A stretch of DNA of 64,000 bases from Dehalococcoidales bacterium (GTDB lineage: Bacteria; Chloroflexota; Dehalococcoidia; Dehalococcoidales; UBA2162): the NCBI GenBank assembly GCA_034432095.1, contig DAOUCV010000026.1, positions 24,657 to 88,656 of the forward strand, written 5' to 3'. Below the pieces are notes generated by a model. It saw nothing but the letters and a program-made list of their open reading frames with translations, was not told the origin of the DNA and did not search any database. Shown here one piece after another: positions 10,162-49,377 of this stretch. Each line of letters begins with the position of its first letter. The first letter of the stretch is position 1. The translations under genes and the position numbers were made by a program.

Positions 10162-10163
10162 TA

Positions 10164-34044: not shown

Positions 34045-34089
34045 ACACGAAGAAACTCACCGGTGAATAAATTCAGGAAGGAGCGAAAA

Positions 34090-35358: not shown

Positions 35359-35376
35359 GAAAGGGGGCAATGAACC

Positions 35377-36846
35377 ATGGCTTTAAGCAAGGACATTTAT
35401 CAGGCGTTCGAAGATGTGGTGGGAAAGGAGTACATCTGTGATGACCCGGCAATAATGCCGGCGTATCATTCGGCTGAGCTCGCCGCGGTAATTCTTCCCA
35501 AGAACACCGCGGAAGTTCAAGCGATAGTCAAGCTATGTAACAAATTCAAGCTGAAATTCAGAGCGGTATGTACCGGCTGGACGGGGATGTTCCCCAAGGG
35601 GATTATCTATTTAGACCTGAGAAGGATGAACCGCATCATTGAGATCAATGAGAAAAATATGTATGCCGTGGTTGAGCCGTATGTCATCTCAGCACAGCTA
35701 CAAGCCGAGCTATTCAAGAGGGGCTTGAATTGCAACATAAAGGGAGCGGGGTCTAACTGCACGGCGCTCCTCAGGGGTCACGGACATATGGACCAGACCA
35801 CCAGTGGCGACGACCGAAACCATCTGGCGGTAGAATGGGTAACTCCTGAAGGGGAAATAGTCAGGTTGGGTTCGCTGGGGTCTTCGGATGAATGGTTCTG
35901 TGGTGACGGGCCAGGACCGTCTTTAAGGTGCTTGATTAGCAGTGCGGTGCCGCCAGGCGTAACACCGGGTGTATTTACAAAAGTGGCGATGAAGCTTTAT
36001 CACTGGCCAGGACCCCCAAGATTTCCAATAACAGGGGTATCACCAAATTACACCCTGAGTGAGATACCACCTGGCTTCATGGTACGATATTTCAGCTTCC
36101 CGTCACCAGAGAAAATGTATGAGGCGGAGCTAAAGATAGGTGAGAGTGAAATAGCCTTTGAGCTAATGGGTTTCAATATGTCAATGGTAGCAGCGAATAT
36201 AACAACTTGTAATGAAGAAGAGGCGGAAGTCTTCGGGCGGCTAAACAAGTTGGTGCAGGGGCCTGGCTTTATGGTAATCATCGCCGGCAACTCTCCGGAA
36301 GACTTTGACTATAAGAAACGGGTGCTGGAGCAAATTATCAGTGAAACTGACGGGCAGTCCTTAAAACCAGTCGAAGACCCCAAAATTGAAGGGGTTCTGT
36401 TGTGCCAGTGTATAAGAATTAGTGCCTCCATTAGAGAGACGTTCCGGGCTGGAGGGGTCTTTAATTCAATTCCTGTTATGGGCCAAAGAGACTTGACGCT
36501 CAAATGGATGTTAGGGGCTGCCAGGGCAAAGGAGCCCTTGATAAGTAAGGGGTTGATAGTGGATGATGGCGCCGCGGGCTTTGGCTGGGGAGTTGAACAT
36601 GGGCATCTCGGGAAAACTGAGATATTCTGCCGGTACGACCGTCTCAACCCTGAAGCGGTAAAAGCCGTGCAGGAATGGCAAAGGGAGCAAACTAAGAGGG
36701 CTTTTGATGGCCGCTTCTTCGCCTCCACAATGGGCCCGATTGATGAAATCGGACCAGCTTTGTCAAATTACCATATATGGTTGAGGAAGGTTCAGAAAGC
36801 ACTTGACCCGAATGATGTATCACCCGCGGGAGGCGCACTTGTCTAG
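35377..36846 (+). CDS. FAD-binding oxidoreductase-like protein, VAO/GlcD family, highly divergent second subunit
   Basis: 489 aa. Same domain order as 32578-34044 (ILPKNTAEVQAIVKLC ... YLDLRRMNRIIEINEKNMYAVVEPYV), but the glycine-rich FAD loop is altered. Confidence 0.6.
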   Translation: MALSKDIYQAFEDVVGKEYICDDPAIMPAYHSAELAAVILPKNTAEVQAIVKLCNKFKLKFRAVCTGWTGMFPKGIIYLDLRRMNRIIEINEKNMYAVVEPYVISAQLQAELFKRGLNCNIKGAGSNCTALLRGHGHMDQTTSGDDRNHLAVEWVTPEGEIVRLGSLGSSDEWFCGDGPGPSLRCLISSAVPPGVTPGVFTKVAMKLYHWPGPPRFPITGVSPNYTLSEIPPGFMVRYFSFPSPEKMYEAELKIGESEIAFELMGFNMSMVAANITTCNEEEAEVFGRLNKLVQGPGFMVIIAGNSPEDFDYKKRVLEQIISETDGQSLKPVEDPKIEGVLLCQCIRISASIRETFRAGGVFNSIPVMGQRDLTLKWMLGAARAKEPLISKGLIVDDGAAGFGWGVEHGHLGKTEIFCRYDRLNPEAVKAVQEWQREQTKRAFDGRFFASTMGPIDEIGPALSNYHIWLRKVQKALDPNDVSPAGGALV

Positions 36847-36962
36847 TCCCGGCTGGCGGGGGAGCGGAGATTGCTCCGACCGCTCAATAACAAAACAGGA
36901 GAAGATGTGTAAATGGACACGAGATTGATACCTGGTGTATTGACAGCAAGGAGACGGAATAG

Positions 36963-37634
36963 ATGAGCATTAAGGTACTGACTATTAAAGAGGACATCCT
37001 GGGCGCTAACGAAGAAAAAGCGAAGGCAAACCGGGAACTGGTAGATAAACACCACATCCTTATGATTAACATCATGTCCTCACCCGGGGCGGGCAAGACC
37101 AGTCTTATCCTACAAACCATAAACAGGTTCAAGGGGAAAACCCGTATTGCTGTTATTGAGGGTGATGTTGCTTCGACAATGGATGCCGATAAGGTAAGCA
37201 AGCTAGCTGTCCCGGTAATTCAAATAAATACCGCTGGTGCCTGCCACCTTGATGCCAATATGATTAGGAAGGCGCTGGATAATCTAGCTCTTGAGCAGAT
37301 TGACCTCCTCCTTATCGAAAATGTCGGTAATCTTATCTGCACGGCTGAGTTTGCCCTCGGTGCCCATAAACAGGTAATGCTCTTGAGCGTTCCCGAAGGC
37401 GATGACAAACCTTATAAATACCCCTTAATGTTTACGGAAGCTGATGTGGTGCTGGTAAACAAAATCGATGTCCTGCCGTACTTTGATTTTAATGTTAACG
37501 CCTTCTCTAAAGCAGTCAGTGGTCTAAACCCTTCGGCTAAAATATTCCCGGTTTCCGCTAAGACGGGCGAAGGTCTGGAAGCATGGTTCTCCTGGCTTGA
37601 AAACGCGATAAAACAGCAAACCAGCACAGCTTAG
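36963..37634 (+). CDS. hypB: hydrogenase/urease nickel-incorporation GTPase HypB
   Basis: 223 aa. P-loop SSPGAGKTS, CH motif (AGACHLDA), ENVGNLIC, NKID. Confidence 0.9.
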   Translation: MSIKVLTIKEDILGANEEKAKANRELVDKHHILMINIMSSPGAGKTSLILQTINRFKGKTRIAVIEGDVASTMDADKVSKLAVPVIQINTAGACHLDANMIRKALDNLALEQIDLLLIENVGNLICTAEFALGAHKQVMLLSVPEGDDKPYKYPLMFTEADVVLVNKIDVLPYFDFNVNAFSKAVSGLNPSAKIFPVSAKTGEGLEAWFSWLENAIKQQTSTA

Positions 37635-37688
37635 GGTTACTTTGCGGCTGCGAAATTCATGCCGGAGGAGGCCGATGCGCCTGGTCTT

Positions 37689-38283
37689 TCATTGCTCTAC
37701 ATCCAGTCCCCATATCCTGAACAACTCCTTGTAGAACTCAGGACGGGGGAAGTCAGGCCTCATCTCAAAGCTGGAATAGGTATATCCGGCACCCCTCTTT
37801 CCCCATTGCCTGAGCTCCAAGATTAAGTCTTCTATCTTATCTTTAGGCACGGAGAAAATGAGTTCGTCCTCTCCTGGCATTGCCCGCTGCTGCTCGCCGG
37901 CACAGGGCAGGCTAATCCGGTACCGGCCTGTTAACATTACATCCACAACGGCGTAAACGCACGAGTTTATCGGGTCCAATTGAGAGCTCACCAGGATGCC
38001 CTCTCTATTCGGTCGCCTCGGGCTCCACCAGCCCGAAGCTGATTAACGGGGCCCAGCACCAGTTGTCCTCTTTCAGCATGGCTACAGTAATTCTCTGCCG
38101 ACGCGACATGGCGAAAGCCTGACATTGCGAAAGATGAAAGCCACGGTCTCGCCGTGGTCTGAAGGCGTCTTTGGGGGGTTCCTCTTTCTTCTCAAGCATC
38201 TTCACCGCTAGGGGGGAAGTCCTCAATAGCAGTAACTTCTCAAGGTCTTCTCCATATTGATTGTAATCGCTGATTGTTATCAT
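37689..38283 (-). pseudogene. DUF169-like gene split into two ORFs (92 aa N-part, 100 aa C-part) by a frame change, apparently missing the middle section
   Basis: N-part: LRTSPLAVKMLEKKEEPP...LSQCQAFAMSRR. C-part: ISLPCAGEQQRAMPGEDELIFSVP. Together these resemble the ends of DUF169 proteins. The stop is at 38005-38007, and the next ORF is in the +1 frame from 37991. Confidence 0.4.
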
Positions 38284-38384
38284 ATAGACTTACCCCCGCT
38301 ATGAGGCAATAATGCGCCTTGTGCCGACAAGCTTCAGGTAATTGTTGAGGTACTGTGGGATATAGCCTGCCCCATATTAAAGAG

Positions 38385-38777
38385 CTACTTTTTCACAAAC
38401 TTCGCCACTCTAGCTAGCAGCTCTTCAGGGCTAACTGGCTTTTCAATGTAATCTTCAGCGTCGAGGGTAAACCCGCGGCTAACTGGGATCCCTGTCCCCG
38501 CACGCTTAGCTGAAAAACCCGTTAACATGAGGGTCGGGATTTTACTGAGTTGAGGGTCTTTTTTGAGCTGTTCAGCAGCCGTGAACCCATTTTTGACTGG
38601 CATTATCACATCCAAGAGAATCAAATCAGGTTTTTCCTCTCTTGCTTTCCGTAATGCCTCATCACCTTCACGGGCGACTATTACCTCATAAGCCTTACTC
38701 TCTAGGATAGTTTTGGTTGACTCCACAAAGTCCATATCATCGTCAACAAGCAAAATTCTGGTTTTCTTCTGCTTCAT
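38385..38777 (-). CDS. single-domain response regulator (CheY-like receiver only)
   Basis: LLVDDD, phospho-acceptor LILLDVIMP, LMLTG, EKP. No output domain. GAGGAG RBS before ATG 38777. Confidence 0.9.
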   Translation of the reverse strand: MKQKKTRILLVDDDMDFVESTKTILESKAYEVIVAREGDEALRKAREEKPDLILLDVIMPVKNGFTAAEQLKKDPQLSKIPTLMLTGFSAKRAGTGIPVSRGFTLDAEDYIEKPVSPEELLARVAKFVKK

Positions 38778-38813
38778 TGTTTCTCTCCTCAAGTATTGAG
38801 CCTATGGCCCAGG

Positions 38814-39215
38814 TCAGACCTTCTGTCTCTTTTTGATAAGCTTGCCCACCCTCTCCAGCAGAACATCAGGGGAAACAGGCTTCTCAACATAATCATCGAC
38901 ATCGAGCTCGAGACCGGTCTCCAGCTCGTAGCGACGGCGACTAGCCTCCTCCCTTACTGAGGTTAGAATTAGAATGGGTATATCCTTGAACTTTGCCCAT
39001 CTTGGGTCTTGCAACTCTTTACATACCCCAAACCCATCCAGCTTTGGCATCAACAGGTCGAGGATCATCAGGTCAGGTTTTTCCGCTTTGAGGGTAGCTA
39101 AACCTTCTATCCCGTCTCGGGCGGTAACCACCTGATAGCCCTGAGTTTCCAGAATCATACTTACCGCATCTAAGATGTCCGGGTCGTCATCAACTACCAA
39201 TATCTTCGCTGGCAT
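38814..39215 (-). CDS. single-domain response regulator (CheY-like receiver only)
   Basis: LVVDDD, LMILDLLMP, LILTS, EKP. 133 aa with no output domain. Confidence 0.9.
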   Translation of the reverse strand: MPAKILVVDDDPDILDAVSMILETQGYQVVTARDGIEGLATLKAEKPDLMILDLLMPKLDGFGVCKELQDPRWAKFKDIPILILTSVREEASRRRYELETGLELDVDDYVEKPVSPDVLLERVGKLIKKRQKV

Positions 39216-39232
39216 ATTATCCTCCTCTGCAA

Positions 39233-40150
39233 TTATAATACAGGTCTGGGCAATAATCCAGCCTGCTTTACAATTTCCGGGACGATGTCCTCCCAGCCGA
39301 CTGCCATAATATGGATGCCGTGCACTCCGGGTATTTCCTTGAGTTGCTCAATAATCTCAAGAGCGATTTTCACTCCCTCCTCTTTGGCATTCCTCGCCTC
39401 TTCCATTCTGGTGACTATCTCATCGGGGACACTGACTCCGGAAACATAGTCGCGCATATAGCGAGCCATACCTGCTGACCTGATGGGTATTACTCCAGCT
39501 AGAATATGTACCTGCTTGTCCAGACCTTTATCGGTAACCATCGCCATCCATCTGGCGAACTTGGCTACATCATAGACTGCCTGGGTTTGAATAAAGTCAG
39601 CTCCTGCTTTTATCTTCTTAGCCAGTCTCGTTACTCGGAACTCAAAGGGGTCAGCATAGGGATTCTCCGCAGCGCCAATGAATAGCGGGACTTCTCCAGA
39701 GATATCCTCGCCGCAGAGAAGTTTCTTCTCATCCCGCATTTTCTTCAGGGTTTGAATTAACTGGATGGAGTCAATATCAAAGACATTCTTGGCTGTGGGG
39801 TGATTGCCAAACTTTTGATGGTCGCCGCTAAGGCAGAGGATATTGCCGATGCCCAGAGCTACCGCCCCCAGTACATCGCTTTGAATGGCGATTCTGTTGC
39901 GGTCTCGGCAGACGATCTGCATAACTGGGTCAACCCCCTGTTGCTTTAGAAGGAGACAACCGGCGAAGCTGGACATACGAACGATGGCGGTCTGATTATC
40001 AGTTACATTGACGGCATCGCAACAGTTACGGAGTAGTTCACCCCTCCTCAGCATCACCGTAGCGCTAGTCCCCTTGGGTGGACCTGCCTCAGCAGTAACG
40101 GCGAACCCCCCACTTTCCAGGACCTTCTCCAGATTTGTTCCTGCTTTCAT
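39233..40150 (-). CDS. metF: methylenetetrahydrofolate reductase, acetogen-type MetF
   Basis: 305 aa MTHFR TIM-barrel (FAVTAEAGPPKG, NVTDN, FIGAAENP, GADFIQTQ). Its ATG overlaps the histidine kinase stop (ATGA). Confidence 0.9.
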   Translation of the reverse strand: MKAGTNLEKVLESGGFAVTAEAGPPKGTSATVMLRRGELLRNCCDAVNVTDNQTAIVRMSSFAGCLLLKQQGVDPVMQIVCRDRNRIAIQSDVLGAVALGIGNILCLSGDHQKFGNHPTAKNVFDIDSIQLIQTLKKMRDEKKLLCGEDISGEVPLFIGAAENPYADPFEFRVTRLAKKIKAGADFIQTQAVYDVAKFARWMAMVTDKGLDKQVHILAGVIPIRSAGMARYMRDYVSGVSVPDEIVTRMEEARNAKEEGVKIALEIIEQLKEIPGVHGIHIMAVGWEDIVPEIVKQAGLLPRPVL

Positions 40151-41622
40151 TGTTGTTGCCTCCGTTCTATTTCACACTTAGGTAAGCGGAAGGAAAATTT
40201 GCTGCCTACGTTATTCTCGGGGCAAGGGGACTCAACCCATATCGTCCCTCCATGTGCCTCTATAATCCTCCTGGCTATGGATAGCCCTAAGCCTGTGCCC
40301 TTCGTTTCCACATTACTGGCACGGAAAAAGTCTTCAAAGATGTGGGGCAGGTCCTGGGGAGGGATGCCAATCCCGGTATCGATGACTTCAACCCGTATGT
40401 CCCTGTCTTCTTCCTCCACTCTGACCGTTATTGTGCCCTCAGGGGTGTAGGTAATAGCATTGCTCACCAGATTGGTTATCACCTGCTGGAGACGAGGGGC
40501 TGAGCCACGAATATTAGGGACTGACCCGGGCAACTCCACCTTGAGCTTTAGTCCCTTTTCCTTTGCCCGGTCACGCAGGTCGTCGCACCCGGTCTTGACC
40601 ACCTGGCACAGGGAGATCTCCTTCATCTCTTCAACAAGCTGCCCGGTTTCAATGCGGGGGATATCGAGAAGGTCGCTGATTAGACTCAGGAGTTCATTAA
40701 TCCTTCTGGTGCTCCTTTCCAGCATATTCTTCTGTTTGGCAGTGATTTCCCCGGCATATCCACCCAGCATAACCCACAGGAAACCTTGGATAGCCGTAAG
40801 CGGGGCTTTAAGGTCATGAGCGGCAATGCCCAGGAAGCGGAGGAAGCGACTTTTCTCTTCTTCAAGCTTGGCTATCTCCCTTGAAGCTTGCTCTAATTCT
40901 CCCGTTTTCTCTCGAAGCAGGTACTCTCTTAATTGAACTACTTCTCTCTGTCTCTTCCTCAGCTCTCCTGAGATAGCTGTGGTCATATACGTGGTAGCAT
41001 AAAGAATAACCACTAAAGCGGTAAGAACCGATAAGATATAACCCCCCTCTTTATACAGTGTCGGAGGAGCAAAGCCTACTAGATTGACATGGGCTATCAC
41101 TCCGGCATATTCCAGCCCTACCAGCAAAGTTATCATTAGCGTTGCTACAGTTGCTAGCAGATATACCGTCCGGTAAGGCTGGATTATGCTGGCAATGATA
41201 ATGTGGAATACGAAGAAGAAGATAAATGGGTTTTCTATTCCGCCGGTAAAGTGAAGAATTGCGGTGAGGGCCAATAGGTCGAAGATGGTGTTGATGTAGC
41301 CATAGGTTCGGGATTTCTGGATTATCATGCCGGGCTTCTCAGTTCGGAGTCTTCGCACCTGGTAAATTAGAATCAGGTTATACCCGGCCAATATGACACA
41401 GATAATATAGACCGGGAGGGTGGGGAACCCAATATGGAAAACCTTTGACGCTAACAAGGTAGCAACAATCACCCCGAGAATAGCCAGCCATTTCAGGCGA
41501 ATGAGAATCCTTCGCCGCATTAATAATGCGGCTTCCTCGGGGGTGTATTCGTGTTTCCCCTCCTCCTTCCCCCCATCCAGCAGGTAAGCCAGGGATTGCA
41601 GGGACTTGTTCCACCGCCTCAT
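40147..41622 (-). CDS. membrane-bound sensor histidine kinase
   Basis: About 6 N-terminal TM helices, coiled coil, H-box GIAAHDLKAPL, N-box LVSNAITYT, G-boxes DTGIGI and GTGLGLSIARR. ATG 41622 is preferred because it avoids overlap with metV. Confidence 0.9.
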   Translation of the reverse strand: MRRWNKSLQSLAYLLDGGKEEGKHEYTPEEAALLMRRRILIRLKWLAILGVIVATLLASKVFHIGFPTLPVYIICVILAGYNLILIYQVRRLRTEKPGMIIQKSRTYGYINTIFDLLALTAILHFTGGIENPFIFFFVFHIIIASIIQPYRTVYLLATVATLMITLLVGLEYAGVIAHVNLVGFAPPTLYKEGGYILSVLTALVVILYATTYMTTAISGELRKRQREVVQLREYLLREKTGELEQASREIAKLEEEKSRFLRFLGIAAHDLKAPLTAIQGFLWVMLGGYAGEITAKQKNMLERSTRRINELLSLISDLLDIPRIETGQLVEEMKEISLCQVVKTGCDDLRDRAKEKGLKLKVELPGSVPNIRGSAPRLQQVITNLVSNAITYTPEGTITVRVEEEDRDIRVEVIDTGIGIPPQDLPHIFEDFFRASNVETKGTGLGLSIARRIIEAHGGTIWVESPCPENNVGSKFSFRLPKCEIERRQQQ

Positions 41623-41627
41623 TATTA

Positions 41628-42287
41628 TTACCCCTCTAAAGCAATCTTTCTGGGTCCCCCGGCGTGGCTGGTGCTCCAATCGCGGGGTGGGGCGATTTCC
41701 TCCAGCCGGTCCAGCTGCCCCAGAGTTTCCAGGCGCTCAATTATCATCTGCCAGGCGCAGGGGATGTCTGGTGATAGTTCGCACCTGCCCTTTACCGAAC
41801 CACCGCAGGGCCCGTTAAGCAGGCTCTTAGCACATCTGACCAGGGGGCATATACCCGCCGTCTGTGCCAGGACGCAACTACCGCACTGGGCACAAACCTC
41901 GATAAAATAACCCGGACTCTCCTCCTTACCAACAAACAAGGTGTTCAGTGCCGGATAAACAGGCTTGGGCTTCCCCAAATAGAGGGAAACAGTTTGTACT
42001 CCAAAGGCACAGGTGAGCACCAGGATACAATCGGCAGCATCAATATCATTAGCATTCTCCTGCAAAGCTTCCCGTGTGAGCTCGTCACAGGCGGTGGGGA
42101 TGACCATCCATCCGGTCACTTTCTTGCCGGCTTCCTCAAGCTTGGCTTTCATTTCCAGAACCTCGGATTTACCACCAGTTCGGCACAGAGTAGCACAGGT
42201 ACCACACCCGATAAGGTAAACCCCCTGGCATTTACCCAGTAATTGCGTAACCTCTTCCCAGGGTTTTTGCTGGGTTATTGTCTTCAT
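41628..42287 (-). CDS. metV: MetV (methylene-THF reductase C-terminal-domain / zinc-ribbon Fe-S subunit)
   Basis: 219 aa. Hallmark motifs CPLVRCAKSLLNGPCGG and CAQCGSC. Its ATG overlaps the NuoF-like stop (ATGA). Confidence 0.85.
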   Translation of the reverse strand: MKTITQQKPWEEVTQLLGKCQGVYLIGCGTCATLCRTGGKSEVLEMKAKLEEAGKKVTGWMVIPTACDELTREALQENANDIDAADCILVLTCAFGVQTVSLYLGKPKPVYPALNTLFVGKEESPGYFIEVCAQCGSCVLAQTAGICPLVRCAKSLLNGPCGGSVKGRCELSPDIPCAWQMIIERLETLGQLDRLEEIAPPRDWSTSHAGGPRKIALEG

Positions 42288-43504
42288 ATCACTGCTCCTG
42301 CCTTAATGTCTTTTCTTAGCCGGTCATCATAGGCGCTTCTAAAATACCGAAGGCTGTCCATTACCGGATTGGGCACTGCCTGTCCCAAACTACATAGGGA
42401 AGCAAGCCTCATAACCTTGGACAATTCCTGTAGGTTCTTAATGTCTTTCTCTGTCCCCTCCTCACCGGAGAACTTCTTCAAGATTTCAAGCATTACCTGG
42501 GTTCCCTCCCGGCACGGAGTACATTTACCGCAGGATTCCCGGCTAAGAAACTCCAGTGTCTGGTAGACAATGTCTATTATACCTTTGGTTTCATCAAATA
42601 CGCTAACTGCTCCAGCCCCAAGAACAGCCTCAAAGGCGAGGGGAGTATCTATCATTTCATAGGGTATAATCCTTCCAATAGCGCCGCCTACCTGAACTGC
42701 CTTGACCTTTTCCGCTAGGGCTAGTCCTTCGACTAGTTCCCTCAGTGGACTCCCTAAGACTAGTTCATATACGCCGGGCTTCTTCACATCCCCGCTCACC
42801 CAGAAGACCTTGGTGCCTTTGCTCTTTTGTGTGCCCAACTGTCTGAACCATCGGGCGCCGTTAAGGATTATTTGGGGTATATTCATCAGGGTTTCTACAT
42901 TATGGACAATAGAGGGTTCCCTCCATAAGCTTTTAGCTGTGGTAAATGGGGGTCTATAGCCGACCTCTATGCGCTTACCCTCAATGGAATCCATAATTGC
43001 TGATTCATCACCAGTAACATAGGGAGCCGACCCCTGGCGAAGACCAATTTCAAAGTCTGCCAGAAGACCCTTCTCTTTGGCTTGCTGAAAAGCATTGGTC
43101 AAGAGAGGAATAAGATGACGATATTCAGTAGACAGATAGATATAGCCCTTATTTGAGCCTGTAGCATAGCCGGCAATAGCCATCGCTTCAATCAGAGTGA
43201 AGGGGTCTCTCTCCAGAATATACTTATCCTTAGATGTTCCAACCTCTCTCCCATCGGCATAGGCGATAACATACTTCTTATTCTCTTGAGCCTTTCTCAC
43301 CTCTTCCCACCTCAATCCGCAGAGAGAACCATCCCCTCCCCGCTCCTGCAAGCCCGATGCCTTTACTTCCCCCAGTACTTCTTCCGGGGTCATCTCTTCT
43401 CTAGCTTTTTTCAAAGCCTTGAAACCGTCTCTATCCAAATAGGTGGCTATGCGCTTGGGGTCAATTACCTCGCAATTTCGTAACACAATTCGCTTCTCTG
43501 GCAT
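42284..43504 (-). CDS. NuoF-like iron-sulfur protein with degenerate FMN/NADH-binding motifs
   Basis: 406 aa, collinear with the core of 10164-12086. RGGDGSLCGLRW replaces GRGGAGFPTGQKW, YADGREVGTS replaces CNADEGDPGAF, and APYVTGDESAI replaces GAFVCGEETAL. ESCGKCTPCREG and LCSLGQ are retained. AAGGAGG RBS before ATG 43504. Confidence 0.8.
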   Translation of the reverse strand: MPEKRIVLRNCEVIDPKRIATYLDRDGFKALKKAREEMTPEEVLGEVKASGLQERGGDGSLCGLRWEEVRKAQENKKYVIAYADGREVGTSKDKYILERDPFTLIEAMAIAGYATGSNKGYIYLSTEYRHLIPLLTNAFQQAKEKGLLADFEIGLRQGSAPYVTGDESAIMDSIEGKRIEVGYRPPFTTAKSLWREPSIVHNVETLMNIPQIILNGARWFRQLGTQKSKGTKVFWVSGDVKKPGVYELVLGSPLRELVEGLALAEKVKAVQVGGAIGRIIPYEMIDTPLAFEAVLGAGAVSVFDETKGIIDIVYQTLEFLSRESCGKCTPCREGTQVMLEILKKFSGEEGTEKDIKNLQELSKVMRLASLCSLGQAVPNPVMDSLRYFRSAYDDRLRKDIKAGAVI

Positions 43505-43505
43505 G

Positions 43506-43751
43506 CTATAGCCTCCTTGCTGAACCTGAGCTTGGCGGCTTGGTCGAGAGGAAAGGGCAAAAGGTGGCAACGCTATATACCTGGCTGGGGAATAGCTTTA
43601 GCCTGTCAGCAATAGCCTCTATAGCTGGTGCAGGAATCCAGCCAAATTCAGCTTGGACCTCAGCCAACACTGAGATTAAGGCGCCTTCCTGTCCTTTATA
43701 ATTAGCCAGTATTTTATCCAGTTTGCTTAGCTCTATTTCCTCGGTTTTCAT
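43506..43751 (-). CDS. NuoE-like N-terminal helical domain only (no 2Fe-2S domain)
   Basis: 81 aa. Aligns to residues about 5-65 of the NuoE at 9703-10161 (ILANYKGQEGALISVLAEVQAEFGWIP...VYSVATF). It stops before any cluster cysteine, and the next gene starts 2 nt later. Confidence 0.65.
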   Translation of the reverse strand: MKTEEIELSKLDKILANYKGQEGALISVLAEVQAEFGWIPAPAIEAIADRLKLFPSQVYSVATFCPFLSTKPPSSGSARRL

Positions 43752-43752
43752 C

Positions 43753-46434
43753 CTAAGCTTTCTCTACCTTCACCGCGCATGCCTTTAGCTCGGGTATCTT
43801 GGCCACCGGGTCCAGCGCCGGATTAGTCAGTATATTGGCGGCCGCTTCTTTAAAATGGAAGGGCATAAATACTGTGCCCGGTAGCACCATCTCGGTTACC
43901 CTAGCCCTGGTTATCAACGAGCCGCGTCTGGATGTTATCTTGACCATGCTGCCATCCAACACTCGCAGGTTTTCAGCATCGTCAGGATTTATCTCAACAA
44001 AGCCTTCAGAACATATTTCATTAAGTCCCCTAACCCTTCTCGTCATTGTCCCGGTATGGAAGTGATATAAAACCCTCCCCGTGGTCAGTACCAGGGGGTA
44101 GTCCTTATCTGGCAGTTCGGCCGGGGGAATATATTCTACAGGGGTAAACTTGCCTCGACCCCTGATAAACCTGTCTTCGTGCAGAAACCTTGTCCCGGGA
44201 TGGTCTTGACCGGGGCATGGCCATTGTAATCCCCCATTTTCAAGTCGGTCGTAGCTTATGCCACCGTAGCTGGGCGTTAGCCGGGCAATTTCGTCCATAA
44301 TTTGCTTGGGTGATTCATAAGCCATGGGATAACCCATCCTGGTAGCTAGCTCGCTGATTATCTGCCAGTCAGGCTTTGCCTGCCCGATAGGCTCGATAGC
44401 CTTCCTCACCCTCTGGACACGCCTCTCGGTGTTGGTGAATGTCCCGTCCTTCTCGGCAAAGCTGACGGCGGGGAGTACTACATCAGCCAGTTTGGCGGTC
44501 TCACTCAAGAATATGTCCTGGACGACGAGAAAATCAAGCGATTCAAGGGCTTCTATGACATGAGTAATATCTGGGTCACTGAGTGCCGGGTTCTCTCCCA
44601 TAATATACATCCCTCTGACTTTTCCTTCTTTGGCGGCTTGGAGCATTTCCACTACCGAGAGTCCGGCTTTGTCAGGTAGTTTACTTCCCCATTCCTTCTC
44701 AAACTTTTCCCTAACTGAGGCAACATCCAGCCGTTGGTATCCCGGAAATACATTTGGCAAAGCCCCCATATCGCACGCTCCCTGGACATTGTTCTGACCT
44801 CTCAGAGGGTTGACCCCGGTGCCCTCTTTACCGACATTCCCGGTCAGCATCGCCAGATTGGCCAGACTAAGCACATTATCCGTACCGCTGGTATGCTGGG
44901 TAATCCCCATGGCGTAGATTATTGAAGCTCTCTCGGCTTGGGCATATAGCCTGGCTGCCTTACGGATATCAGAGGCTGGAACGCCGGTGACCCGTTCCGC
45001 ATACTCCGGGGTGTATTTCTGTATCCCTGCCTTCAGTTCCTCAAAGCCTTCGGTCCTTTGGCTGACAAACTCCTTGTCCCAGAGTTCTTCATTGATAATT
45101 ACATTTACCAAGCCATTGATAAGGGCGACATCGGTGCCTGGTCTTTGTCTCAGCCATATGTCGGCAAATTTGGTCAGTGTTATGGCTCGCGGGTCAGCGA
45201 TGATTAACTTTGCTCCCTTTAACTTGACCGCCCGTTTAATCCGATGGCTTATTATGGGATGTTCTTCGGTGGTGTTGGAGCCGATAACCAGAATGGCAAT
45301 GGCACTTTCTATTTCCTCTATAGAGTTGGTCATCGCTCCGCTACCGAAGGCTGTAGCCAGACCGGCTACGGTGGGGGCATGTCAGAGGCGGGCGCAATTA
45401 TCTATGTTATTGGTACCAATAACCGCCCGCATAAATTTTTGCATCAGGTAGTTTTCTTCATTGGTGCACTTGGATGAACTCAAGCCAGCGAGACTATCGC
45501 TACCATATTTCTGTTTGATTTCCTCCAGTTTATGAGCCACGAAATCCAGCGCTTCTTCCCAGGAGCTTTCCGTAAGCTCGCCATTTTTCCTGATTAATGG
45601 GGCTTTCAGCCGGTCAGGGTGATTGATAAAGTTGAGTCCATAGCGACCTTTGACACACAGGCGCCCCTGGTTAACCGGGTTTTCTCCATCAGGAGTCACG
45701 CTAATGACTTCTTGGTCTCGAACGTTAAGCTCAACTCCACAGCCGCAGCCACAATAAGGGCAGATGGTACGAACCTTTCTCGTCGTTTTCCACTTATACT
45801 TGGCCGGTCTATCTGATAACGCCCCCACAGGGCACATGGAGACGCAGAGCCCGCAAAATTCACAAGAGGATTTTTCCAAAGGCTGGTCAAGCAGGGTCGC
45901 CGGTTTGGACTGAAATCCCCGGTAGGCATAATCAATGGCACCTACAACTGACAGTTCCTGGCAGGCTCTTATGCATTTGCCACAAAGAATGCACTTGGTA
46001 AGGTCCCTCTCAATAAAGGGGTTGGTGTCTTCTATCGGGTAATAGCGTTTCTTAGCCCTGAATCGGGGGAGCCCTACCCCCAGGTCAGCCGCAATCTTGC
46101 GTAACTCGCACAGGTTCGCTTTGTCACATACCAGGCAGTTATCGGGGTGGCTGGCTAGCAACAGTTCCACTATTGCCCGCCGAGCTTCCACAACCTTTGG
46201 GGAATGAGTATATATAACCATTCCCTGGGCAATTGGCGTGTGGCAGGAGCCGACAAGCGTACCAGAGCCCTCCACCTCAACGACGCAAACACGACAGGCA
46301 CCGATAGGAGTCAAGACCGGACTATGGCAGAGGGTGGGAATATATATGCCGTTGTCCCGGGCAACCTCCAGAATGGTCATGCCCTCACGCCCGCTAACTT
46401 TGGAACCGTCAATCGTTATAGAGATATTGCCCAT
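43753..46434 (-). CDS. fdhA: formate dehydrogenase alpha subunit, selenocysteine-containing (in-frame UGA at 45384-45382)
   Basis: ORFs 45382-46446 and 43753-45333 share a frame. Their junction reads [27 protein letters not shown]-terminal 2Fe-2S/4Fe-4S clusters. Paralog of 12136-14889. ATG 46434 is preferred over TTG 46446. Confidence 0.9.
45333..45384 (-). other. selenocysteine UGA codon plus SECIS hairpin (second copy)
   Basis: TCA at 45382-45384 on the + strand is UGA on the - strand. The hairpin GUAGCC-GGUCU-GGCUAC lies at 45369-45353, 12 nt downstream of the UGA, and is identical to the first copy. Confidence 0.8.
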
Positions 46435-46446
46435 GTTATGGCTCAA

Positions 46447-46475
46447 TTATTACGCCATCCTCGGTCTGCCGTCAA
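46447..46475 (-). promoter_or_regulatory. promoter candidate TTGACG-17-TAATAA directly upstream of the fdhA start
   Basis: On the - strand: TTGACG (46475-46470), 17 nt spacer, TAATAA (46452-46447). The ATG at 46434 is only about 12 nt past the -10 and has no SD, suggesting a very short or absent leader. Confidence 0.35.
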
Positions 46476-46593
46476 GCCCCGCCTGAAGGAACTGGGTTAC
46501 CAAATGACCTCTGACCTTGATTTAGGGAAGAGCGATAGCGTATACTAATGTAAAAGTATCGGTCACAAATCAAAGATAAAGGAGGGGGCGTAA

Positions 46594-46848
46594 ATGCCAG
46601 AGGTAGAAATCGGAAGGGTGTCTGATTTCTTCGCCAGACCGGTGGTAGCCGGCATTGAGCTAACAGCACCTCTGAAAGTGGGTGATAGAATCCATATTGT
46701 GGGTCATACCACTGATATGGAGTTGACCGTTGAGTCAATGCAGATTAACAACGTAGATGTCAAGTCGGCTAAAGCCGGGGATGCTGTTGGCGTTAAGGTC
46801 AGCGACAGGGTAAGGCGGGGAGACAAAGTCTATAAGGTTGCTGCCTAA
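46594..46848 (+). CDS. small stand-alone EF-Tu domain-2-like beta-barrel protein
   Basis: 84 aa. The pattern GRVSDFF...VAGIELTAPLKVGDRIHI...SMQINNVDVKSAKAGDAVGVKV...RGDKVY resembles translation-factor domain II. AAGGAGGGGG RBS. Confidence 0.55.
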   Translation: MPEVEIGRVSDFFARPVVAGIELTAPLKVGDRIHIVGHTTDMELTVESMQINNVDVKSAKAGDAVGVKVSDRVRRGDKVYKVAA

Positions 46849-46990
46849 AGCCCATCATATCCGTATCCCTTAAATCGTCTCTAAAGGCTGCTGAGAAATC
46901 CCCCGGGAGCTTTTGGCTAATGGTTGACGTTCATTATGAGGGTTTTAGGTCGCAATGCGGGAAAAGTGTTTTTCAGCACCCCGTCAGTAA

Positions 46991-47458
46991 CTAGTCAATC
47001 CTTTTGAGCAGGTTAGCCATTTCAATGGCATCAACCGCAGCATTGAAGCCCCTGTTTCCGGCTTTAGTCCCTGCCCGCTCAATAGCCTGTTCCAGAGTAT
47101 CCGCCGTGATTACGCCATAGATGACTGGCATTCCTGTCTCCAGACCTACCTTAGCAATGCCCTTGCTAACCTCAGCCGCAACATATTCAAAATGGGGCGT
47201 TGCCCCACGAACCACCGCGCCAAGACAGATAATAGCGTGATACTTCTTGCTTTCAGCCAGTTTTTTGGCGACTAGCGGAATCTCGAAGGCGCCCGGCACC
47301 CAGGCGATATCTATATCCTCCTGGCTAACATCGTGGCGAAGGAGAGCATCTTGTGCCCCCTCCAGCAGTTTCTTAGTGATAAACTCGTTGAAACGGGAGA
47401 CAACCACCCCAAATTTTAGCCCTTTCCCAACCAACACACCTTCAAAAATCTGGCTCAT
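46991..47458 (-). CDS. ribH: 6,7-dimethyl-8-ribityllumazine synthase
   Basis: 155 aa lumazine synthase ([35 protein letters not shown]). Confidence 0.95.
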
Positions 47459-47469
47459 AACTTCCTCCT

Positions 47470-48711
47470 TTATTTCTCGTCACCATCCGGGATTTCAATA
47501 AGGTGACCCAGTTTTTTCTTCTTTGTCTTCAGATAATTGATGTTATGCGGGTTGGGAGTAGCAAGGATAGGTACCTGTTCCACAACCCTCAGCCCATAAC
47601 CCTCAAAACCGATTATCTTTTTAGGATTGTTGGTAAGAAACCTGATTTCGTGCAAGCCTAGGTCAACCAGAATCTGGGCACCGATACCATAGTCCCGCAG
47701 GTCGGGAGCAAATCCTAAAGAGAGGTTAGCCTCGACGGTATCCAGCCCCTTGTCCTGAAGGGCATAGGCACGAAGCTTGTTATGGAAGCCGATGCCCCGA
47801 CCTTCCTGCCGCATATAAAGGAAAACACCCCGTCCTTCTTTAGCGATACTCTGCATCGCCAGGGCAACCTGCTCACCGCAATCACAACGCAGACTGCCAA
47901 ACACGTCGCCGGTAAGACACTCGCTATGGACACGGACTAGCACTGGTTCCCGAGTAGATATGTCGCCCATAACCAGAGCGAGGTGTTCATCAGGGTCAAT
48001 ATCGCTCTTATAGGCAATGGCGATGAACTCGCCATATCTGGTGGGGAGCCTGGCCTCGGCAACCCGGTGCACCAGCTTCTCATGGCGACGGCGATAAGCA
48101 ATAAGGTCAGCCACGCTGACAATCTTAAGCCCCCACTTCTCAGCCATTTTCTCCAGTTGAGGTAGCCGCGCCATGGTGCCGTCTTCATTCATGATCTCGC
48201 AGATGACTCCCGCCGGGTAAAGTCCCGCCAGCCTCGCTAGGTCAACCACAGCTTCGGTGTGCCCCGCCCGCACCAGAACACCACCATCACGGGCTCGCAG
48301 GGGGAACATATGTCCCGGCCGAGCTAAATCCTCTGGCTTCGTGGCTGGGTCAATCAGCACCCTTACCGTTTCTGCCCGGTCAGCGGCGGAAATACCGGTG
48401 CTCACTCTGTGCTTGGCTTCAACAGAGACAGTGAAAGCAGTGGAGTACTTTGAGGTATTTTCGCTCACCATCATAGGAATCTTCAGCTCATCCAGCCGTT
48501 TACCCGTAAGCGGCACACAAATCAATCCCCTGGCGTGGGTTGCCATGAAGTTGATAGCTTCAGGGGTCACCTTCTCGGCAGCCATAATCAGGTCGCCTTC
48601 GTTTTCCCTGTCCTCGTCATCAACGATGATGACAAACTTACCTGCCTTTATATCCTCAATCGCCTGTTCAATCGTGGCTAACCCCATACTTGCCCTCTCT
48701 CCTTCAAGCAA
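47470..48711 (-). CDS. ribBA: bifunctional 3,4-dihydroxy-2-butanone-4-phosphate synthase / GTP cyclohydrolase II
   Basis: DHBP synthase N-half ([11 protein letters not shown]) and GCH-II C-half ([19 protein letters not shown]). An internal ATG at 48687 is an alternative start. Confidence 0.95.
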
Positions 48712-48712
48712 A

Positions 48713-49342
48713 CTAACTCACCATGAAGCCGTGCTCCTGTAAGAAATCAGCGGTTATGCCCGTGCGGCGAGTTTGGCTGAGTTGCTCGACATACTTGGCA
48801 ATAATATCCACCTCCAGATTAACTGAGTCACCTACCTGCCGGTTACCCAGAGTGGTGTGCTGGCGGGTGTAATCAACAACAGAGACCTGAAACGAGCTGG
48901 TATCCTTAGCCGCCACCGTTAGACTAACCCCATCCACAGCAATAAAACCTTTCTCCACGATATAGCGCATCACCCCGGGAGGAGCTTCAAATCTAACCAC
49001 CATTGCCTCGCCATCCCACCTGATAGAGGCTACTCTTCCGGTAGCGTCTATATGACCTTGAACCAAATGTCCCCCCAGAAGTCCGCCAAGAGGCAGAGGT
49101 CGCTCCAGGTTAACTCTATCACCTGCGGAAAGTAGCCCGAGATTAGACCGTTTCAATGTCTCTGGCATCATGTCAACAGCAAAGGAACCGGTGTCAAGAC
49201 CGGTTATGGTCAGGCATACTCCGTTAACAGCGATGCTCCCGCCTGGCTCCAAACCCTGGAGAACCTTGCTGGCGGTAATAACCAGCCTTCCCGGCCGTAC
49301 TGAATTAACCGTACCAACCTCTTCTATAATCCCGGTGAACAT
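48713..49342 (-). CDS. ribE: riboflavin synthase alpha chain
   Basis: [11 protein letters not shown]-terminus and the duplicated lumazine-binding repeat. Confidence 0.95.
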
Positions 49343-49377
49343 CCAGACTCCCTAATTCGGACTGAACAATATCGTTT

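What the first reader, a model, noticed from the sequence alone, without database searches (positions are those of the whole stretch)
38385..46475. Operon joining a Sec-formate dehydrogenase, a stripped-down NuoE/NuoF pair, MetV/MetF and a two-component system: candidate formate-linked methylene-THF reductase
Seen in sequence: eight co-directional minus-strand genes run 46434 -> 38385 with gaps of 1-21 nt and two ATGA start/stop overlaps (42284-42287 and 40147-40150). In order they are:
- Sec-FdhA
- NuoE N-terminal domain
- NuoF-like protein
- MetV
- histidine kinase
- MetF
- CheY-like receiver
- CheY-like receiver

Established knowledge: acetogen-type methylene-THF reductases consist of MetF and MetV plus a variable electron-input module. 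Acetobacterium woodii uses a NuoF-like NADH-binding flavoprotein (RnfC2), and Moorella-type enzymes use HdrABC-MvhD.

Inference: here the input module is a molybdo/tungstopterin Sec-FdhA with its Fe-S chain. It is joined to a NuoF-like protein that keeps the 4Fe-4S motif but has lost the canonical FMN/NADH loops. Electrons might therefore pass from formate to methylene-THF (or the reverse) without free NAD(H). I know of no described enzyme with that arrangement.
Basis: partly seen in the sequence, partly recalled or inferred. Interest (0 to 1): 0.85.

Follow-up and report, generated by a model that had tools for sequence, protein, structure and literature searches.

The report
Formate dehydrogenase wired to methylene-THF reductase
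A Chloroflexi-type operon joins a selenocysteine formate dehydrogenase to the MetV/MetF methylene-tetrahydrofolate reductase through a NuoE/NuoF pair that has lost its NADH/flavin site, and relatives show every stage from NADH-only to formate-only versions, so formate probably feeds this carbon-fixation step directly.

Summary

- **NuoE' and NuoF'.** NuoE' (81 aa) lacks the whole [2Fe-2S] domain. NuoF' keeps its [4Fe-4S] cysteines but differs at 15 of 73 near-invariant NuoF positions, 14 of them in the FMN/NADH domain.
- **Not pseudogenes.** Three diverged relatives share both defects, with dN/dS about 0.2.
- **Family context.** About 40 related loci carry a short NuoG-like Fe-S protein, intact NuoE and NuoF, then MetV and MetF. 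This is the unstudied 'X-type' reductase noted in 2021.
- **Sister clade.** Here the Fe-S protein is the N-terminus of a full FdhA, always upstream of MetV. The module between them is canonical, HydB-like, GltD-fused, degenerate as here, or absent (FdhA directly followed by MetV).
- **Complementary loss.** No short-form locus has a degenerate NuoF.
- **Second enzyme.** The window also encodes a canonical NuoE-NuoF-Sec-FdhA operon.

Best reading, at about 0.5 confidence: a formate-driven, NAD(H)-independent methylene-THF reductase complex. The main rival is two separate ferredoxin-linked enzymes that are merely co-transcribed. No biochemical or transcript data were available to test this. I class it as a new variant of a known kind.

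The parts
43753..46434 (-). FdhA-2: cytoplasmic selenocysteine formate dehydrogenase alpha subunit. It has a NuoG-like N-terminal Fe-S domain (2Fe-2S, a His-ligated 4Fe-4S and 2x 4Fe-4S) followed by a 4Fe-4S and bis-pterin catalytic domain.
   Evidence: ORFs and read-through translation. Pfam domains. Full-length match to FdsA-type NAD-dependent formate dehydrogenases and to HDCR FdhF and E. coli FdhH. Residues 1-207 are 62-73% identical to the short NuoG-like proteins of MetVF loci, and group with them in the tree.
45382..45384 (-). In-frame UGA read as selenocysteine (CARL-U-HAPTV).
   Evidence: Translation. The same column is TGC (Cys) in L128, L129, L130, L135, L136 and L137, and TGA in L051, L132 and L003.
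45353..45369 (-). SECIS-like hairpin GUAGCC-GGUCU-GGCUAC, starting 12 nt after the UGA.
   Evidence: Fold. The stem is kept in the Sec-type genes, with compensatory changes in L003 (GUGGUC-GGUCU-GGCCAC), and is degraded in the Cys-type genes. The GGUC loop resembling E. coli fdhF is from my own knowledge.
43506..43751 (-). NuoE': N-terminal helical domain only, 81 aa. The thioredoxin-like [2Fe-2S] (N1a) domain and all four Cys ligands are absent.
   Evidence: Pfam covers profile positions 2-63 of 145. In alignment with full-length relatives it ends right after ATFCPFLSTKP. L051 is cut at the same point and L138 carries the same tail. dN/dS is 0.20-0.21. Domain boundaries come from Aquifex NuoE, PMC6560083.
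42284..43504 (-). NuoF': the NuoF/HydB fold with an intact N3 [4Fe-4S] motif (C325, C328, C331, C371). The three FMN/NADH loops are degenerate: ERGGDGSLCGLRW, AYADGREVGTSKD and GSAPYVTGDESAI, plus HNVET.
   Evidence: PDB alignments. Motif table. 15 of 73 near-invariant columns are changed, 14 of them in residues 53-201. Only 3 of the 120 best clusters are degenerate. dN/dS is 0.19-0.24. The fold is retained, TM about 0.8.
41628..42287 (-). MetV: Fe-S subunit of the acetogen-type methylene-THF reductase, with the NGPCGG motif present. Its start overlaps the NuoF' stop (ATGA).
   Evidence: Pfam PF12225. ORF and sequence. The motif is as defined in PMC8515935. 89-93% identical to L123, L132 and P0242.
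40147..41622 (-). Membrane histidine kinase (6TM PilS-like, HisKA, HATPase_c) inserted between metV and metF.
   Evidence: Pfam. The same position is occupied in many related loci. Noted earlier for marine Chloroflexi in PMC5736913.
39233..40150 (-). MetF: catalytic flavoprotein subunit of the methylene-THF reductase. Its start overlaps the kinase stop (ATGA).
   Evidence: Pfam PF02219, 145 bits. 96% identical to L051, with dN/dS 0.047.
38814..39215 (-). Receiver-only response regulator 1 (no output domain).
   Evidence: Pfam PF00072. Conserved downstream of metF in relatives.
38385..38792 (-). Receiver-only response regulator 2 (no output domain).
   Evidence: Pfam PF00072. Conserved in relatives.

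Best explanation
**Proposal.** The cluster encodes a derived form of the NuoEFG-type ('X-type') MetVF methylene-THF reductase. In it, formate replaces NADH as the electron donor.

**Proposed electron path (inferred).**
1. Formate is oxidised at the Sec/pterin site of FdhA-2.
2. Electrons run through the 4Fe-4S cluster of the catalytic domain and the Fe-S chain of its NuoG-like N-terminal domain.
3. They pass to the Fe-S clusters of MetV.
4. They reach the flavin of MetF, which reduces methylene-THF to methyl-THF.

**Role of NuoE' and NuoF' (inferred).** They no longer bind N1a or FMN/NADH. They persist as a scaffold that still carries one 4Fe-4S cluster.

**Shown here.**
- Gene content and spacing.
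- Sec decoding signals.
- Loss of the N1a domain.
- Concentrated loss of conserved FMN/NADH residues with the N3 ligands retained.
- Purifying selection on NuoE' and NuoF'.
- Strict FdhA-MetV synteny, with a variable or absent NAD(P)H module between them.
- A separate canonical NuoEF-FdhA operon in the same window.

**Not shown.** Physical complex formation, the electron path, the direction of the reaction and independence from NAD(H).
For: 1. **Orthology of the Fe-S domain.** FdhA-2 residues 1-207 are 62-73% identical to the short (about 210-230 aa) NuoG-like proteins encoded just upstream of NuoE-NuoF-MetV in 27 loci. They are only about 40-47% identical to the N-domains of other FdhAs. In an NJ tree the fused and short forms are sister clades.
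2. **Strict synteny.** All six distinct contexts of FdhA homologues at least 82% identical whose contigs extend downstream have FdhA upstream of MetV: L128, L130, L132/L133, L135, L136 and L137. The module between them varies: NuoE + NuoF399, NuoE + HydB-like646, NuoE + NuoF::GltD1039, NuoE::NuoF511, the degenerate pair, or nothing. In L128 and L129, FdhA is followed after 30 nt by MetV. A seventh context, L138, has FdhA-NuoE'-NuoF' but its contig ends inside NuoF'.
3. **Complementary loss.** The only NuoF proteins with degenerate FMN/NADH motifs are P0001-P0003, out of the 120 best clusters from 5.8 billion proteins. They sit behind a full FdhA wherever the upstream gene is visible. None of the 27 short-form loci is degenerate.
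4. **Selective degeneration.** 14 of 42 near-invariant columns are changed in the FMN domain against 1 of 31 elsewhere (p = 0.002). The N3 cysteines are intact. NuoE' lacks all four N1a ligands.
5. **Not decay.** dN/dS is 0.19-0.24 for NuoE' and NuoF' across two independent comparisons with dS of 0.35-0.54. All reading frames are intact in window, L051/L132 and L138.
6. **Translational coupling.** Gaps are 1 nt, and NuoF'/MetV share an ATGA overlap.
7. **A separate general enzyme.** The window carries a canonical NuoE(152 aa)-NuoF(640 aa)-Sec-FdhA operon at 9703-14889. Its FdhA is 56% identical to FdhA-2. The MetVF-linked paralogue is therefore not the cell's only formate dehydrogenase.
Against: - There is no direct evidence of a complex, of a single transcript or of activity.
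- Wood-Ljungdahl genes are often clustered without forming complexes. In L003, a separate full FdhA lies next to a short-form module.
- MetFV alone can use reduced ferredoxin (C. ljungdahlii, PMC8515935). FdhA and MetVF could therefore communicate through free ferredoxin.
- No FdhA-MetV or NuoG-MetV fusion protein appeared among the 120 best MetV relatives.
- Several flavin-contacting positions are retained in NuoF' (Y162, G165, E167, N202, E204, T205), so loss of FMN is likely but not proven.
- Direct formate-to-methylene-THF transfer would dissipate about 230 mV under standard conditions (textbook potentials). That seems wasteful for an energy-limited anaerobe unless formate is kept low.
Confidence: 0.5

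Rival explanations
1. Two separate enzymes are merely co-transcribed. FdhA-2, with or without its vestigial NuoE'F', is a ferredoxin-linked or other-carrier-linked formate dehydrogenase. MetVF is a 2S-type reduced-ferredoxin-dependent reductase. They exchange electrons through a free carrier, and the gene order reflects pathway clustering.
For: MetFV alone works with reduced ferredoxin in C. ljungdahlii, and Wood-Ljungdahl genes cluster in acetogens (PMC8515935). FdhA and NuoEF genes lie next to, but apart from, short-form modules in L003 and L001. No fusion proteins were found.
Against: - This does not explain why the short NuoG-like Fe-S protein, which has no catalytic site of its own, is invariably encoded with NuoEF-MetV (27 loci).
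- It does not explain why the FdhA-2 N-domain is that protein's closest relative.
- It does not explain why this FdhA clade precedes MetV in every contig that extends downstream.
- It does not explain why a cofactor-stripped NuoE'F' stays under purifying selection.
Confidence: 0.28
2. NuoF' is still a working nucleotide or flavin site with altered specificity. It might use a different flavin-binding mode, a different dinucleotide, or act as a docking site for ferredoxin or flavodoxin. The complex would then remain a three-site enzyme like its relatives.
For: The fold is retained (TM about 0.8). Several pocket residues are conserved (Y162, G165, E167, N202, E204, T205). The altered motifs are themselves conserved among window, L051 and L138, and dN/dS is about 0.2.
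Against: - Acidic residues are introduced into the glycine-rich phosphate-binding loop (G54E, A58D).
- Near-invariant F60, K65, N82, E85 and G160 are lost.
- E85 aligns with the E95-S96 peptide at the flavin in Aquifex NuoF (PMC6560083).
- The partner N1a domain is lost at the same time.
- A close relative dispenses with NuoEF altogether (L128).
Confidence: 0.14
3. The NuoE'F' genes, or the whole 5' part of the operon, are decaying relics of a recombination event and have no function.
For: The structure is mosaic. FdhA and NuoE(1-72) are closest to L137, while NuoF through REC2 are closest to L123. The joint lies exactly at the NuoE truncation. dN/dS of NuoE'F' is about twice that of neighbouring genes.
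Against: Frames are intact and dN/dS is about 0.2 in three diverged lineages with dS of 0.35-0.6. The N3 cysteines are conserved. Start-stop coupling is tight. FdhA itself has dN/dS of 0.08-0.13.
Confidence: 0.05

Closest known systems
'X-type' MetFV methylene-THF reductase with a NuoEFG-homologue module (gene arrangement noted in Dethiosulfatarculus sandiegensis, Desulfobacterales and Chloroflexi; Yi et al. 2021, PMC8515935)
   Same: MetV and MetF are preceded by NuoG-like, NuoE-like and NuoF-like genes. About 40 related loci found here have exactly this layout with canonical NuoE and NuoF.
   Different: - Here the NuoG-like protein is a complete Sec-FdhA.
- NuoE lacks its cluster domain, and the NuoF FMN/NADH loops are degenerate.
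- The X type itself has never been purified and was only speculated to bifurcate.
NAD+-dependent formate dehydrogenase FdsABG / FdhA-NuoEF (Rhodobacter capsulatus 6TG9, Cupriavidus necator 6VW7)
   Same: The alpha subunit matches over its full length, including the NuoG-like N-terminus. The beta-like (NuoF) and gamma-like (NuoE) genes are adjacent.
   Different: - The gamma-like subunit has no 2Fe-2S domain.
- The beta-like subunit has lost conserved FMN/NADH residues.
- The operon continues into MetV/MetF.
- A canonical version of this enzyme is encoded separately at 9703-14889.
Acetobacterium woodii 3S-type reductase (MetF-MetV-RnfC2)
   Same: It has a MetVF core plus one extra Fe-S/flavin subunit of the NuoF/RnfC superfamily that supplies electrons.
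   Different: - The donor there is NADH, bound at RnfC2.
- Here the homologous site is degenerate.
- A molybdo/tungstopterin formate-oxidising subunit is attached instead.
Moorella thermoacetica 6S-type reductase (MetFV-HdrABC-MvhD), as also found in marine Chloroflexi DscP3 with phoBR-like genes around metF (PMC5736913)
   Same: It has a MetVF core. A two-component kinase and regulator are embedded around metF in Chloroflexi.
   Different: No HdrABC or MvhD genes are present in this operon. The input module is FdhA/NuoE'F'.
Hydrogen-dependent CO2 reductase and HydABC/NfnABC/StnABC-type modular enzymes
   Same: A formate dehydrogenase or other catalytic module is wired by Fe-S subunits directly to a second catalytic module without a free carrier. 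NuoF' is structurally closest to HydB, NfnB and StnB.
   Different: - The partner here is a folate reductase, not a hydrogenase or a GltD-type module.
- The flavin that is the bifurcation site in those enzymes appears to be missing.

Membership tests
Sec-containing FdhF/FdsA-type formate dehydrogenase alpha subunit | bis-pterin catalytic domain with the 4Fe-4S domain and the Sec/Cys-His pair, plus the RGQNNVQG arginine region | tested here: met
   Pfam finds Molybdop_Fe4S4, Molybdopterin and Molydop_binding. The motif is CARL-U-HAPTV, and [13 protein letters not shown] is present. E-values are 1e-194 to 1e-244 against solved formate dehydrogenases. The catalytic role of these residues is recalled from E. 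coli FdhH, not tested.
Sec-containing FdhF/FdsA-type formate dehydrogenase alpha subunit | In-frame UGA with a downstream SECIS hairpin | tested here: met
   The UGA aligns with Cys in six homologues. A hairpin 12 nt downstream is kept, with compensatory changes, in Sec-type genes only. selA, selB and selC were not looked for, and no Rfam hit was found.
NuoEF-coupled (NAD-dependent) formate dehydrogenase | NuoF/FdsB subunit with a conserved FMN- and NADH-binding site | tested here: not met
   15 of 73 near-invariant columns are changed, 14 of them in the FMN domain. 39 related NuoF proteins differ at 0-2 columns. Cofactor binding itself cannot be tested with these tools.
NuoEF-coupled (NAD-dependent) formate dehydrogenase | NuoE/FdsG subunit with a thioredoxin-like [2Fe-2S] domain | tested here: not met
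   The protein is 81 aa and covers profile positions 2-63 of 145. All four Cys ligands are absent.
NuoEF-coupled (NAD-dependent) formate dehydrogenase | NuoF [4Fe-4S] N3 ligands | tested here: met
   C325, C328, C331 and C371 are present. PF10589 scores 101.6 bits.
MetFV-type (acetogen-type) methylene-THF reductase | MetF (PF02219) together with MetV (PF12225, NGPCGG motif, Cys clusters), with metV upstream of metF | tested here: met
   Pfam hits. NGPCGG is present in the MetV sequence. metV lies upstream of metF but is separated from it by the kinase gene, as in many relatives.
X-type MetFV reductase (NuoEFG homologue upstream) | NuoG-, NuoE- and NuoF-homologous genes immediately upstream of metV | tested here: met
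   The gene order is FdhA(NuoG-like)-NuoE'-NuoF'-MetV with 1-nt gaps and an overlap.
X-type MetFV reductase (NuoEFG homologue upstream) | A functional NAD(P)H-oxidising NuoEF module (presumed; the type has never been characterised) | tested here: not met
   NuoE' and NuoF' are degenerate. The relatives are canonical.
3S (RnfC2) and 6S (HdrABC-MvhD) MetFV reductases | RnfC2 or HdrABC-MvhD genes adjacent to metVF | tested here: not met
   None is found in the operon. A CCG/Fer4 protein at 34063-35358 belongs to a divergent FAD-oxidase cluster.
Formate:methylene-THF oxidoreductase complex (proposed here) | Physical FdhA-MetVF association and carrier-independent formate-driven activity | not testable with these tools
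   Only indirect evidence exists: synteny, orthology of the Fe-S domain and complementary loss.
Two-component system | HisKA + HATPase_c kinase with a cognate receiver domain | tested here: met
   Pfam. Both receivers lack an output domain, so the target of regulation is unknown.

The most novel reading that the evidence does not exclude
These Chloroflexi-type bacteria carry a natural series of methylene-THF reductases built on one Fe-S wire. The forms are NADH-only (short NuoG' + NuoEF), dual-input (FdhA + NuoEF variants) and formate-only (FdhA + stripped NuoE'F', or FdhA alone). The window enzyme would then be a carrier-free formate:methylene-THF oxidoreductase, an electron-input class not among the E. 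coli, 2S, 3S, 6S and X types. The dual-input relatives could be three-site enzymes linking formate, NAD(P)H and folate reduction.
Probability: 0.45. Interest if true: 0.8.

Novelty: new variant of a known kind. Interest (0 to 1): 0.66.

Why it matters
The electron donor of methylene-THF reductase differs between acetogen types, and the cell's energy balance depends on it. Yi et al. 2021 list several input modules and call the NuoEFG-linked 'X type' unstudied.

If correct, this locus and its relatives provide:
- a predicted new donor (formate) for that step;
- a minimal candidate for biochemistry, namely FdhA-MetVF as in L128;
- a natural 'knock-out series' showing which modules are dispensable. 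This makes the function of the X-type module directly testable.

It would also change carbon and electron budgets inferred for these uncultured Chloroflexota-type bacteria. The habitat of the source sample was not determined here.

Tried and rejected
- **AlphaFold confidence as a test of the FMN loops.** NuoF' gave pLDDT below 50 at residues 54-63, 85-91 and 159-195. A control with a canonical relative (P0004) and the same 37-sequence alignment gave the same low-confidence segments. The test is uninformative and is not used as evidence.
- **Rosetta-stone search.** The 120 best MetV relatives are all 215-231 aa and contain only PF12225. No fusion supports or refutes a complex.
- **Rfam scan of the whole window.** No family reached its gathering score. 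This includes any SECIS, Moco, THF or FMN riboswitch model.
- **Promoter and terminator scans of 37500-47100.** Counts were at chance level: 11 promoter-like sites against 9.3 +/- 2.8 expected, and 14 terminator-like sites against 10.0 +/- 3.9 expected. These scans say nothing about a single transcript. The best promoter-like site (46475-46446) abuts the start codon.
- **Pseudogene reading.** Rejected as the main explanation because dN/dS is about 0.2 in two independent comparisons.
- **FdhA-2 as the cell's general formate dehydrogenase.** Made unlikely by the separate canonical operon in the window.
- **Literature.** Eight full-text searches found the X-type note and the phoBR note. None found a formate dehydrogenase-MetVF complex or a degenerate NuoEF. 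The library lacks most subscription-journal papers.

Full report
**1. Observation**

The region 38385-46446 holds eight co-directional minus-strand ORFs. Pfam assigns them as follows:
- a NuoG-like Fe-S domain fused to a molybdopterin formate dehydrogenase;
- a fragment of the NuoE family (profile positions 2-63 of 145 only);
- a NuoF-like protein (Complex1_51K 98.9 bits, NADH_4Fe-4S 101.6 bits);
- MetV (PF12225);
- a 6TM histidine kinase;
- MetF (PF02219);
- two receiver-only proteins.

Read-through translation shows one in-frame TGA in the motif CARL-U-HAPTV. The junctions are 1 nt, 1 nt, an ATGA overlap, 5 nt, an ATGA overlap, 17 nt and 21 nt. NuoF' has an AGGAGG ribosome-binding site 8 nt before its ATG at 43504.

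The window comes from a 137.7-kb metagenome contig, JGI 3300022548 Ga0212092_1000040. Its closest named relatives are Dehalococcoidia/Chloroflexota MAGs.

**2. Selenocysteine**

The TGA column is TGC (Cys) in six close homologues and TGA in L051, L132 and L003.

Twelve nucleotides downstream lies the hairpin GUAGCC-GGUCU-GGCUAC. The stem is intact in the Sec-type genes and shows compensatory changes in L003. It is degraded in the Cys-type genes. The whole 71-nt stretch does not fold better than shuffled sequence (z = -0.6), and Rfam reports nothing. The support therefore comes from the comparative pattern.

**3. How degenerate are NuoE' and NuoF'?**

*NuoF' motifs.* Alignment with solved HydB, NfnB and NuoF chains (E = 1e-108 to 1e-56) shows good conservation overall. 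The three glycine-rich loops, however, are altered:

| Canonical | Window |
|---|---|
| GRGGAGFPTG | ERGGDGSLCG |
| CNADEGDPGAF | AYADGREVGTS |
| GAGAFVCGEETAL | GSAPYVTGDESAI |

*Conserved columns.* I compared 109 NuoF homologues fetched from two public collections.
- 73 columns are at least 95% conserved. The window differs at 15 of them and its relative L051 at 14.
- The 39 MetVF-linked relatives differ at 0-2.
- 14 of the 15 changes lie among the 42 conserved columns of residues 1-205. Only one lies among the other 31 (Fisher p = 0.002).
- The N3 ligands C325, C328, C331 and C371 are intact.

*NuoE'.* It ends right after ATFCPFLSTKP. Full-length relatives continue into the thioredoxin-like domain with its four cysteines. 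In Aquifex NuoE that domain is residues 80-160, and the N1a ligands are C86, C91, C127 and C131 (PMC6560083).

*Rarity.* Among the 120 best clusters from a 5.8-billion-protein search, only three carry the degenerate motifs: the window protein and relatives at 85% and 84% identity.

*Still functional genes.* The NuoE truncation at the same point and the altered NuoF motifs occur together in L051/L133 and L138, and L132 has the same 81-aa NuoE' and an equally similar NuoF'. dN/dS is 0.19-0.24 for both genes, against 0.05-0.13 for the neighbours, at dS 0.35-0.6. These proteins are altered but maintained. They are not pseudogenes.

*Structure.* A model keeps the NuoF fold, with TM about 0.8 to NfnB and HydB. 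Its low confidence in the cofactor loops also appears in a canonical control, so it proves nothing.

**4. The family it belongs to**

NuoF-seeded searches returned about 40 loci at 61-73% identity. They come from Dehalococcoidia MAGs, the NPL-UPA2 MAG Unc8, a MAG labelled Calditrichales and many metagenome contigs.

Their layout is:
- a short NuoG-like Fe-S protein (210-230 aa);
- full NuoE;
- a canonical NuoF of about 400 aa;
- MetV;
- optionally the kinase;
- MetF;
- optionally the two receivers.

Yi et al. 2021 mention this arrangement as an unstudied 'X type' of MetFV reductase found in Desulfobacterales and Chloroflexi (PMC8515935). Sewell et al. 2017 had already noticed the kinase and regulator genes around metF in marine Chloroflexi (PMC5736913). 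Suzuki et al. 2018 noted that nuoEF and nuoEGF gene sets lie close to fdhAB and folD in the NPL-UPA2 genome (PMC6305446).

**5. The FdhA-linked sister clade**

Searching with the catalytic part of FdhA-2 gave homologues at 82-91% identity. In every one whose contig extends downstream, FdhA lies upstream of MetV. What sits between them varies:

| Locus | FdhA type | Module between FdhA and MetV |
|---|---|---|
| L137 | Cys | NuoE (155 aa), NuoF (399 aa) |
| L130 | Cys | NuoE, HydB-like NuoF (646 aa) |
| L136 | Cys | NuoE, NuoF::GltD fusion (1039 aa) |
| L135 | Cys | NuoE::NuoF fusion (511 aa) |
| window, L132, L133 (L138: contig ends inside NuoF') | Sec | NuoE' (81 aa), degenerate NuoF' |
| L128, L129 | Cys | none (30-nt gap to MetV; L128 continues kinase-MetF-REC-REC) |

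A homologue at 72% identity (L134) is not linked to MetV.

In an NJ tree of the N-terminal Fe-S domain, all MetVF-linked domains form one group with two sister clades, FdhA-fused and short. Full-length FdhAs are the outgroups. This suggests the short form arose by losing the catalytic domain. The result is tentative because the tree is NJ without bootstrap support.

No short-form locus has a degenerate NuoF. Losses are therefore complementary. A lineage loses either the formate site or the NADH site, and in this sample never both.

**6. Origin of the window's version**

Segment-wise identities show a mosaic.

| Segment | Closest locus | Identity to closest | Identity to the other type |
|---|---|---|---|
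| FdhA and NuoE(1-72) | L137 | 79-86%; NuoE 83% | NuoE 41% to L123 |
| NuoF' through REC2 | L123 (short form) | MetV 89%, kinase 84%, MetF 93%, REC1 95% | 63-90% to FdhA-type loci |

The joint coincides with the NuoE truncation. A recombination that grafted FdhA and the 5' end of nuoE onto an L123-like operon would explain the truncation. After it, the FMN domain of NuoF diverged faster than the rest of the protein (68% against 77% identity to L123).

**7. Context in the window**

A canonical operon lies 30 kb away on the plus strand:
- NuoE, 9703-10161, full-length;
- a HydB-like NuoF, 10164-12086 (Complex1_51K 155 bits, C-terminal ferredoxin domain);
- a second Sec-FdhA, 12136-14889.

The two FdhAs are 56% identical. 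The canonical one has a 24-residue Cys-rich insertion in its N-domain that FdhA-2 lacks.

Other neighbours are a riboflavin operon, a FAD-oxidase/CCG cluster, a CobW/HypB-type GTPase and a disrupted DUF169 gene. No other Wood-Ljungdahl gene was found in the 64 kb.

**8. Mechanism**

The best-supported reading is a complex in which formate oxidised at FdhA-2 supplies electrons to methylene-THF. They would pass through the NuoG-like Fe-S chain to MetV and then to MetF. NuoE'F' would be retained as a scaffold carrying one cluster.

Sections 1-7 give what is shown. The complex, the electron path and the direction are inferred.

On textbook potentials, CO2/formate lies near -430 mV, NAD+/NADH near -320 mV and methylene-/methyl-THF near -200 mV. 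The forward reaction is therefore strongly exergonic and the reverse is implausible. At micromolar formate the couple approaches the NADH potential, so the energy forgone would be similar to that of an NADH-dependent enzyme. This last point is inference.

The main rival is that FdhA and MetVF are separate ferredoxin-linked enzymes sharing an operon. It is not excluded. It does, however, leave several findings unexplained: the catalytic-site-free short NuoG-like partner, the strict synteny of this FdhA clade with MetV, the complementary losses, and the selection that maintains NuoE'F'.

**9. Verdict**

It gains strong comparative backing but has no biochemical proof, and part of its background was already in the literature.
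- The locus is a new variant of a known, uncharacterised kind (X-type MetFV reductase).
- It is worth experimental follow-up. Together with L128 it offers a minimal, testable candidate for a formate-driven methylene-THF reductase.

Noticed in passing
window 9703-14889 (+): A second, canonical formate dehydrogenase operon. It has full-length NuoE (152 aa), a HydB-like NuoF (640 aa with a C-terminal ferredoxin domain) and a second Sec-FdhA. That FdhA has a TGA at 13249-13251 in the same CARL-U-HAPTV motif. It is 56% identical to FdhA-2 and has a 24-residue Cys-rich insertion in its N-domain.
   Followed up: yes
window 43506-43751 / 42284-43504; loci L123 and L137: The operon is a mosaic. FdhA and the NuoE N-part resemble L137-type loci, while NuoF through REC2 resemble the short-form locus L123. 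The joint falls at the point where NuoE is truncated, which suggests a recombination scar.
   Followed up: partly
L128 9001-15591 (JGI Ga0499970_0000280) and L129: A Cys-type FdhA 83% identical to FdhA-2 is followed after 30 nt by MetV-kinase-MetF-REC-REC, with no NuoE or NuoF gene. This is the minimal form of the arrangement.
   Followed up: partly
L136 3536-6655, L018 1648-4779, L134 5215-8295: These loci carry NuoF fused to a GltD/pyridine-nucleotide-disulfide-oxidoreductase-like domain (1026-1043 aa). In L136 and L018 the fusion sits between FdhA/NuoE and MetV. It is reminiscent of the Stn/NfnABC-type modules that top the structure search.
   Followed up: no
L135 353-1806: A ferredoxin-like protein and a CCG-domain (HdrB-like) protein lie directly upstream of an FdhA-NuoE::NuoF-MetV-GAF-kinase-MetF operon. 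L001 also has CCG-domain and HdrA-like genes upstream.
   Followed up: no
NJ tree of N-terminal Fe-S domains (loci L001-L138): The short NuoG-like proteins of X-type loci form the sister clade of the FdhA-fused domains, with full-length FdhAs as outgroups. The short form may therefore derive from a formate dehydrogenase that lost its catalytic domain.
   Followed up: partly
window 37689-38283 (-): A DUF169 gene is split into two ORFs (92 and 100 aa) that match profile positions 2-73 and 160-207 of 209. The middle is missing, so it is probably a disrupted gene just downstream of the operon.
   Followed up: partly
window 46991-50472 (-): A four-gene run that, from the ORF translations only (not scanned against Pfam), looks like a riboflavin biosynthesis operon lies directly upstream of fdhA-2. 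No FMN riboswitch, or any other Rfam family, reached threshold anywhere in the window.
   Followed up: no
window 32521-37634 (+): A cluster of FAD-binding oxidase, Fer4/CCG protein and FAD-binding oxidase is followed by a CobW/HypB/UreG-type GTPase. It converges on the end of the operon. Its substrate is unknown.
   Followed up: no
window 46594-46848 (+): An 84-aa ORF with a weak EF-Tu domain-2 match, below the Pfam cut-off, is divergent from fdhA-2 and about 160 bp from its start. The shared intergenic region holds the best promoter-like match of the scan.
   Followed up: no
window 38385-39215 and 40147-41622 (-): Both response regulators are receiver-only, and the kinase has only a membrane 6TM sensor. 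The trio is conserved inside many metV-metF operons. This hints at regulation by protein-protein contact rather than DNA binding.
   Followed up: no
window 29853-31265 (+): A 470-aa protein has a URO-D-family domain only in its C-terminal half (residues 265-465). It lies next to a solute-binding protein and an acyl-CoA dehydrogenase.
   Followed up: no
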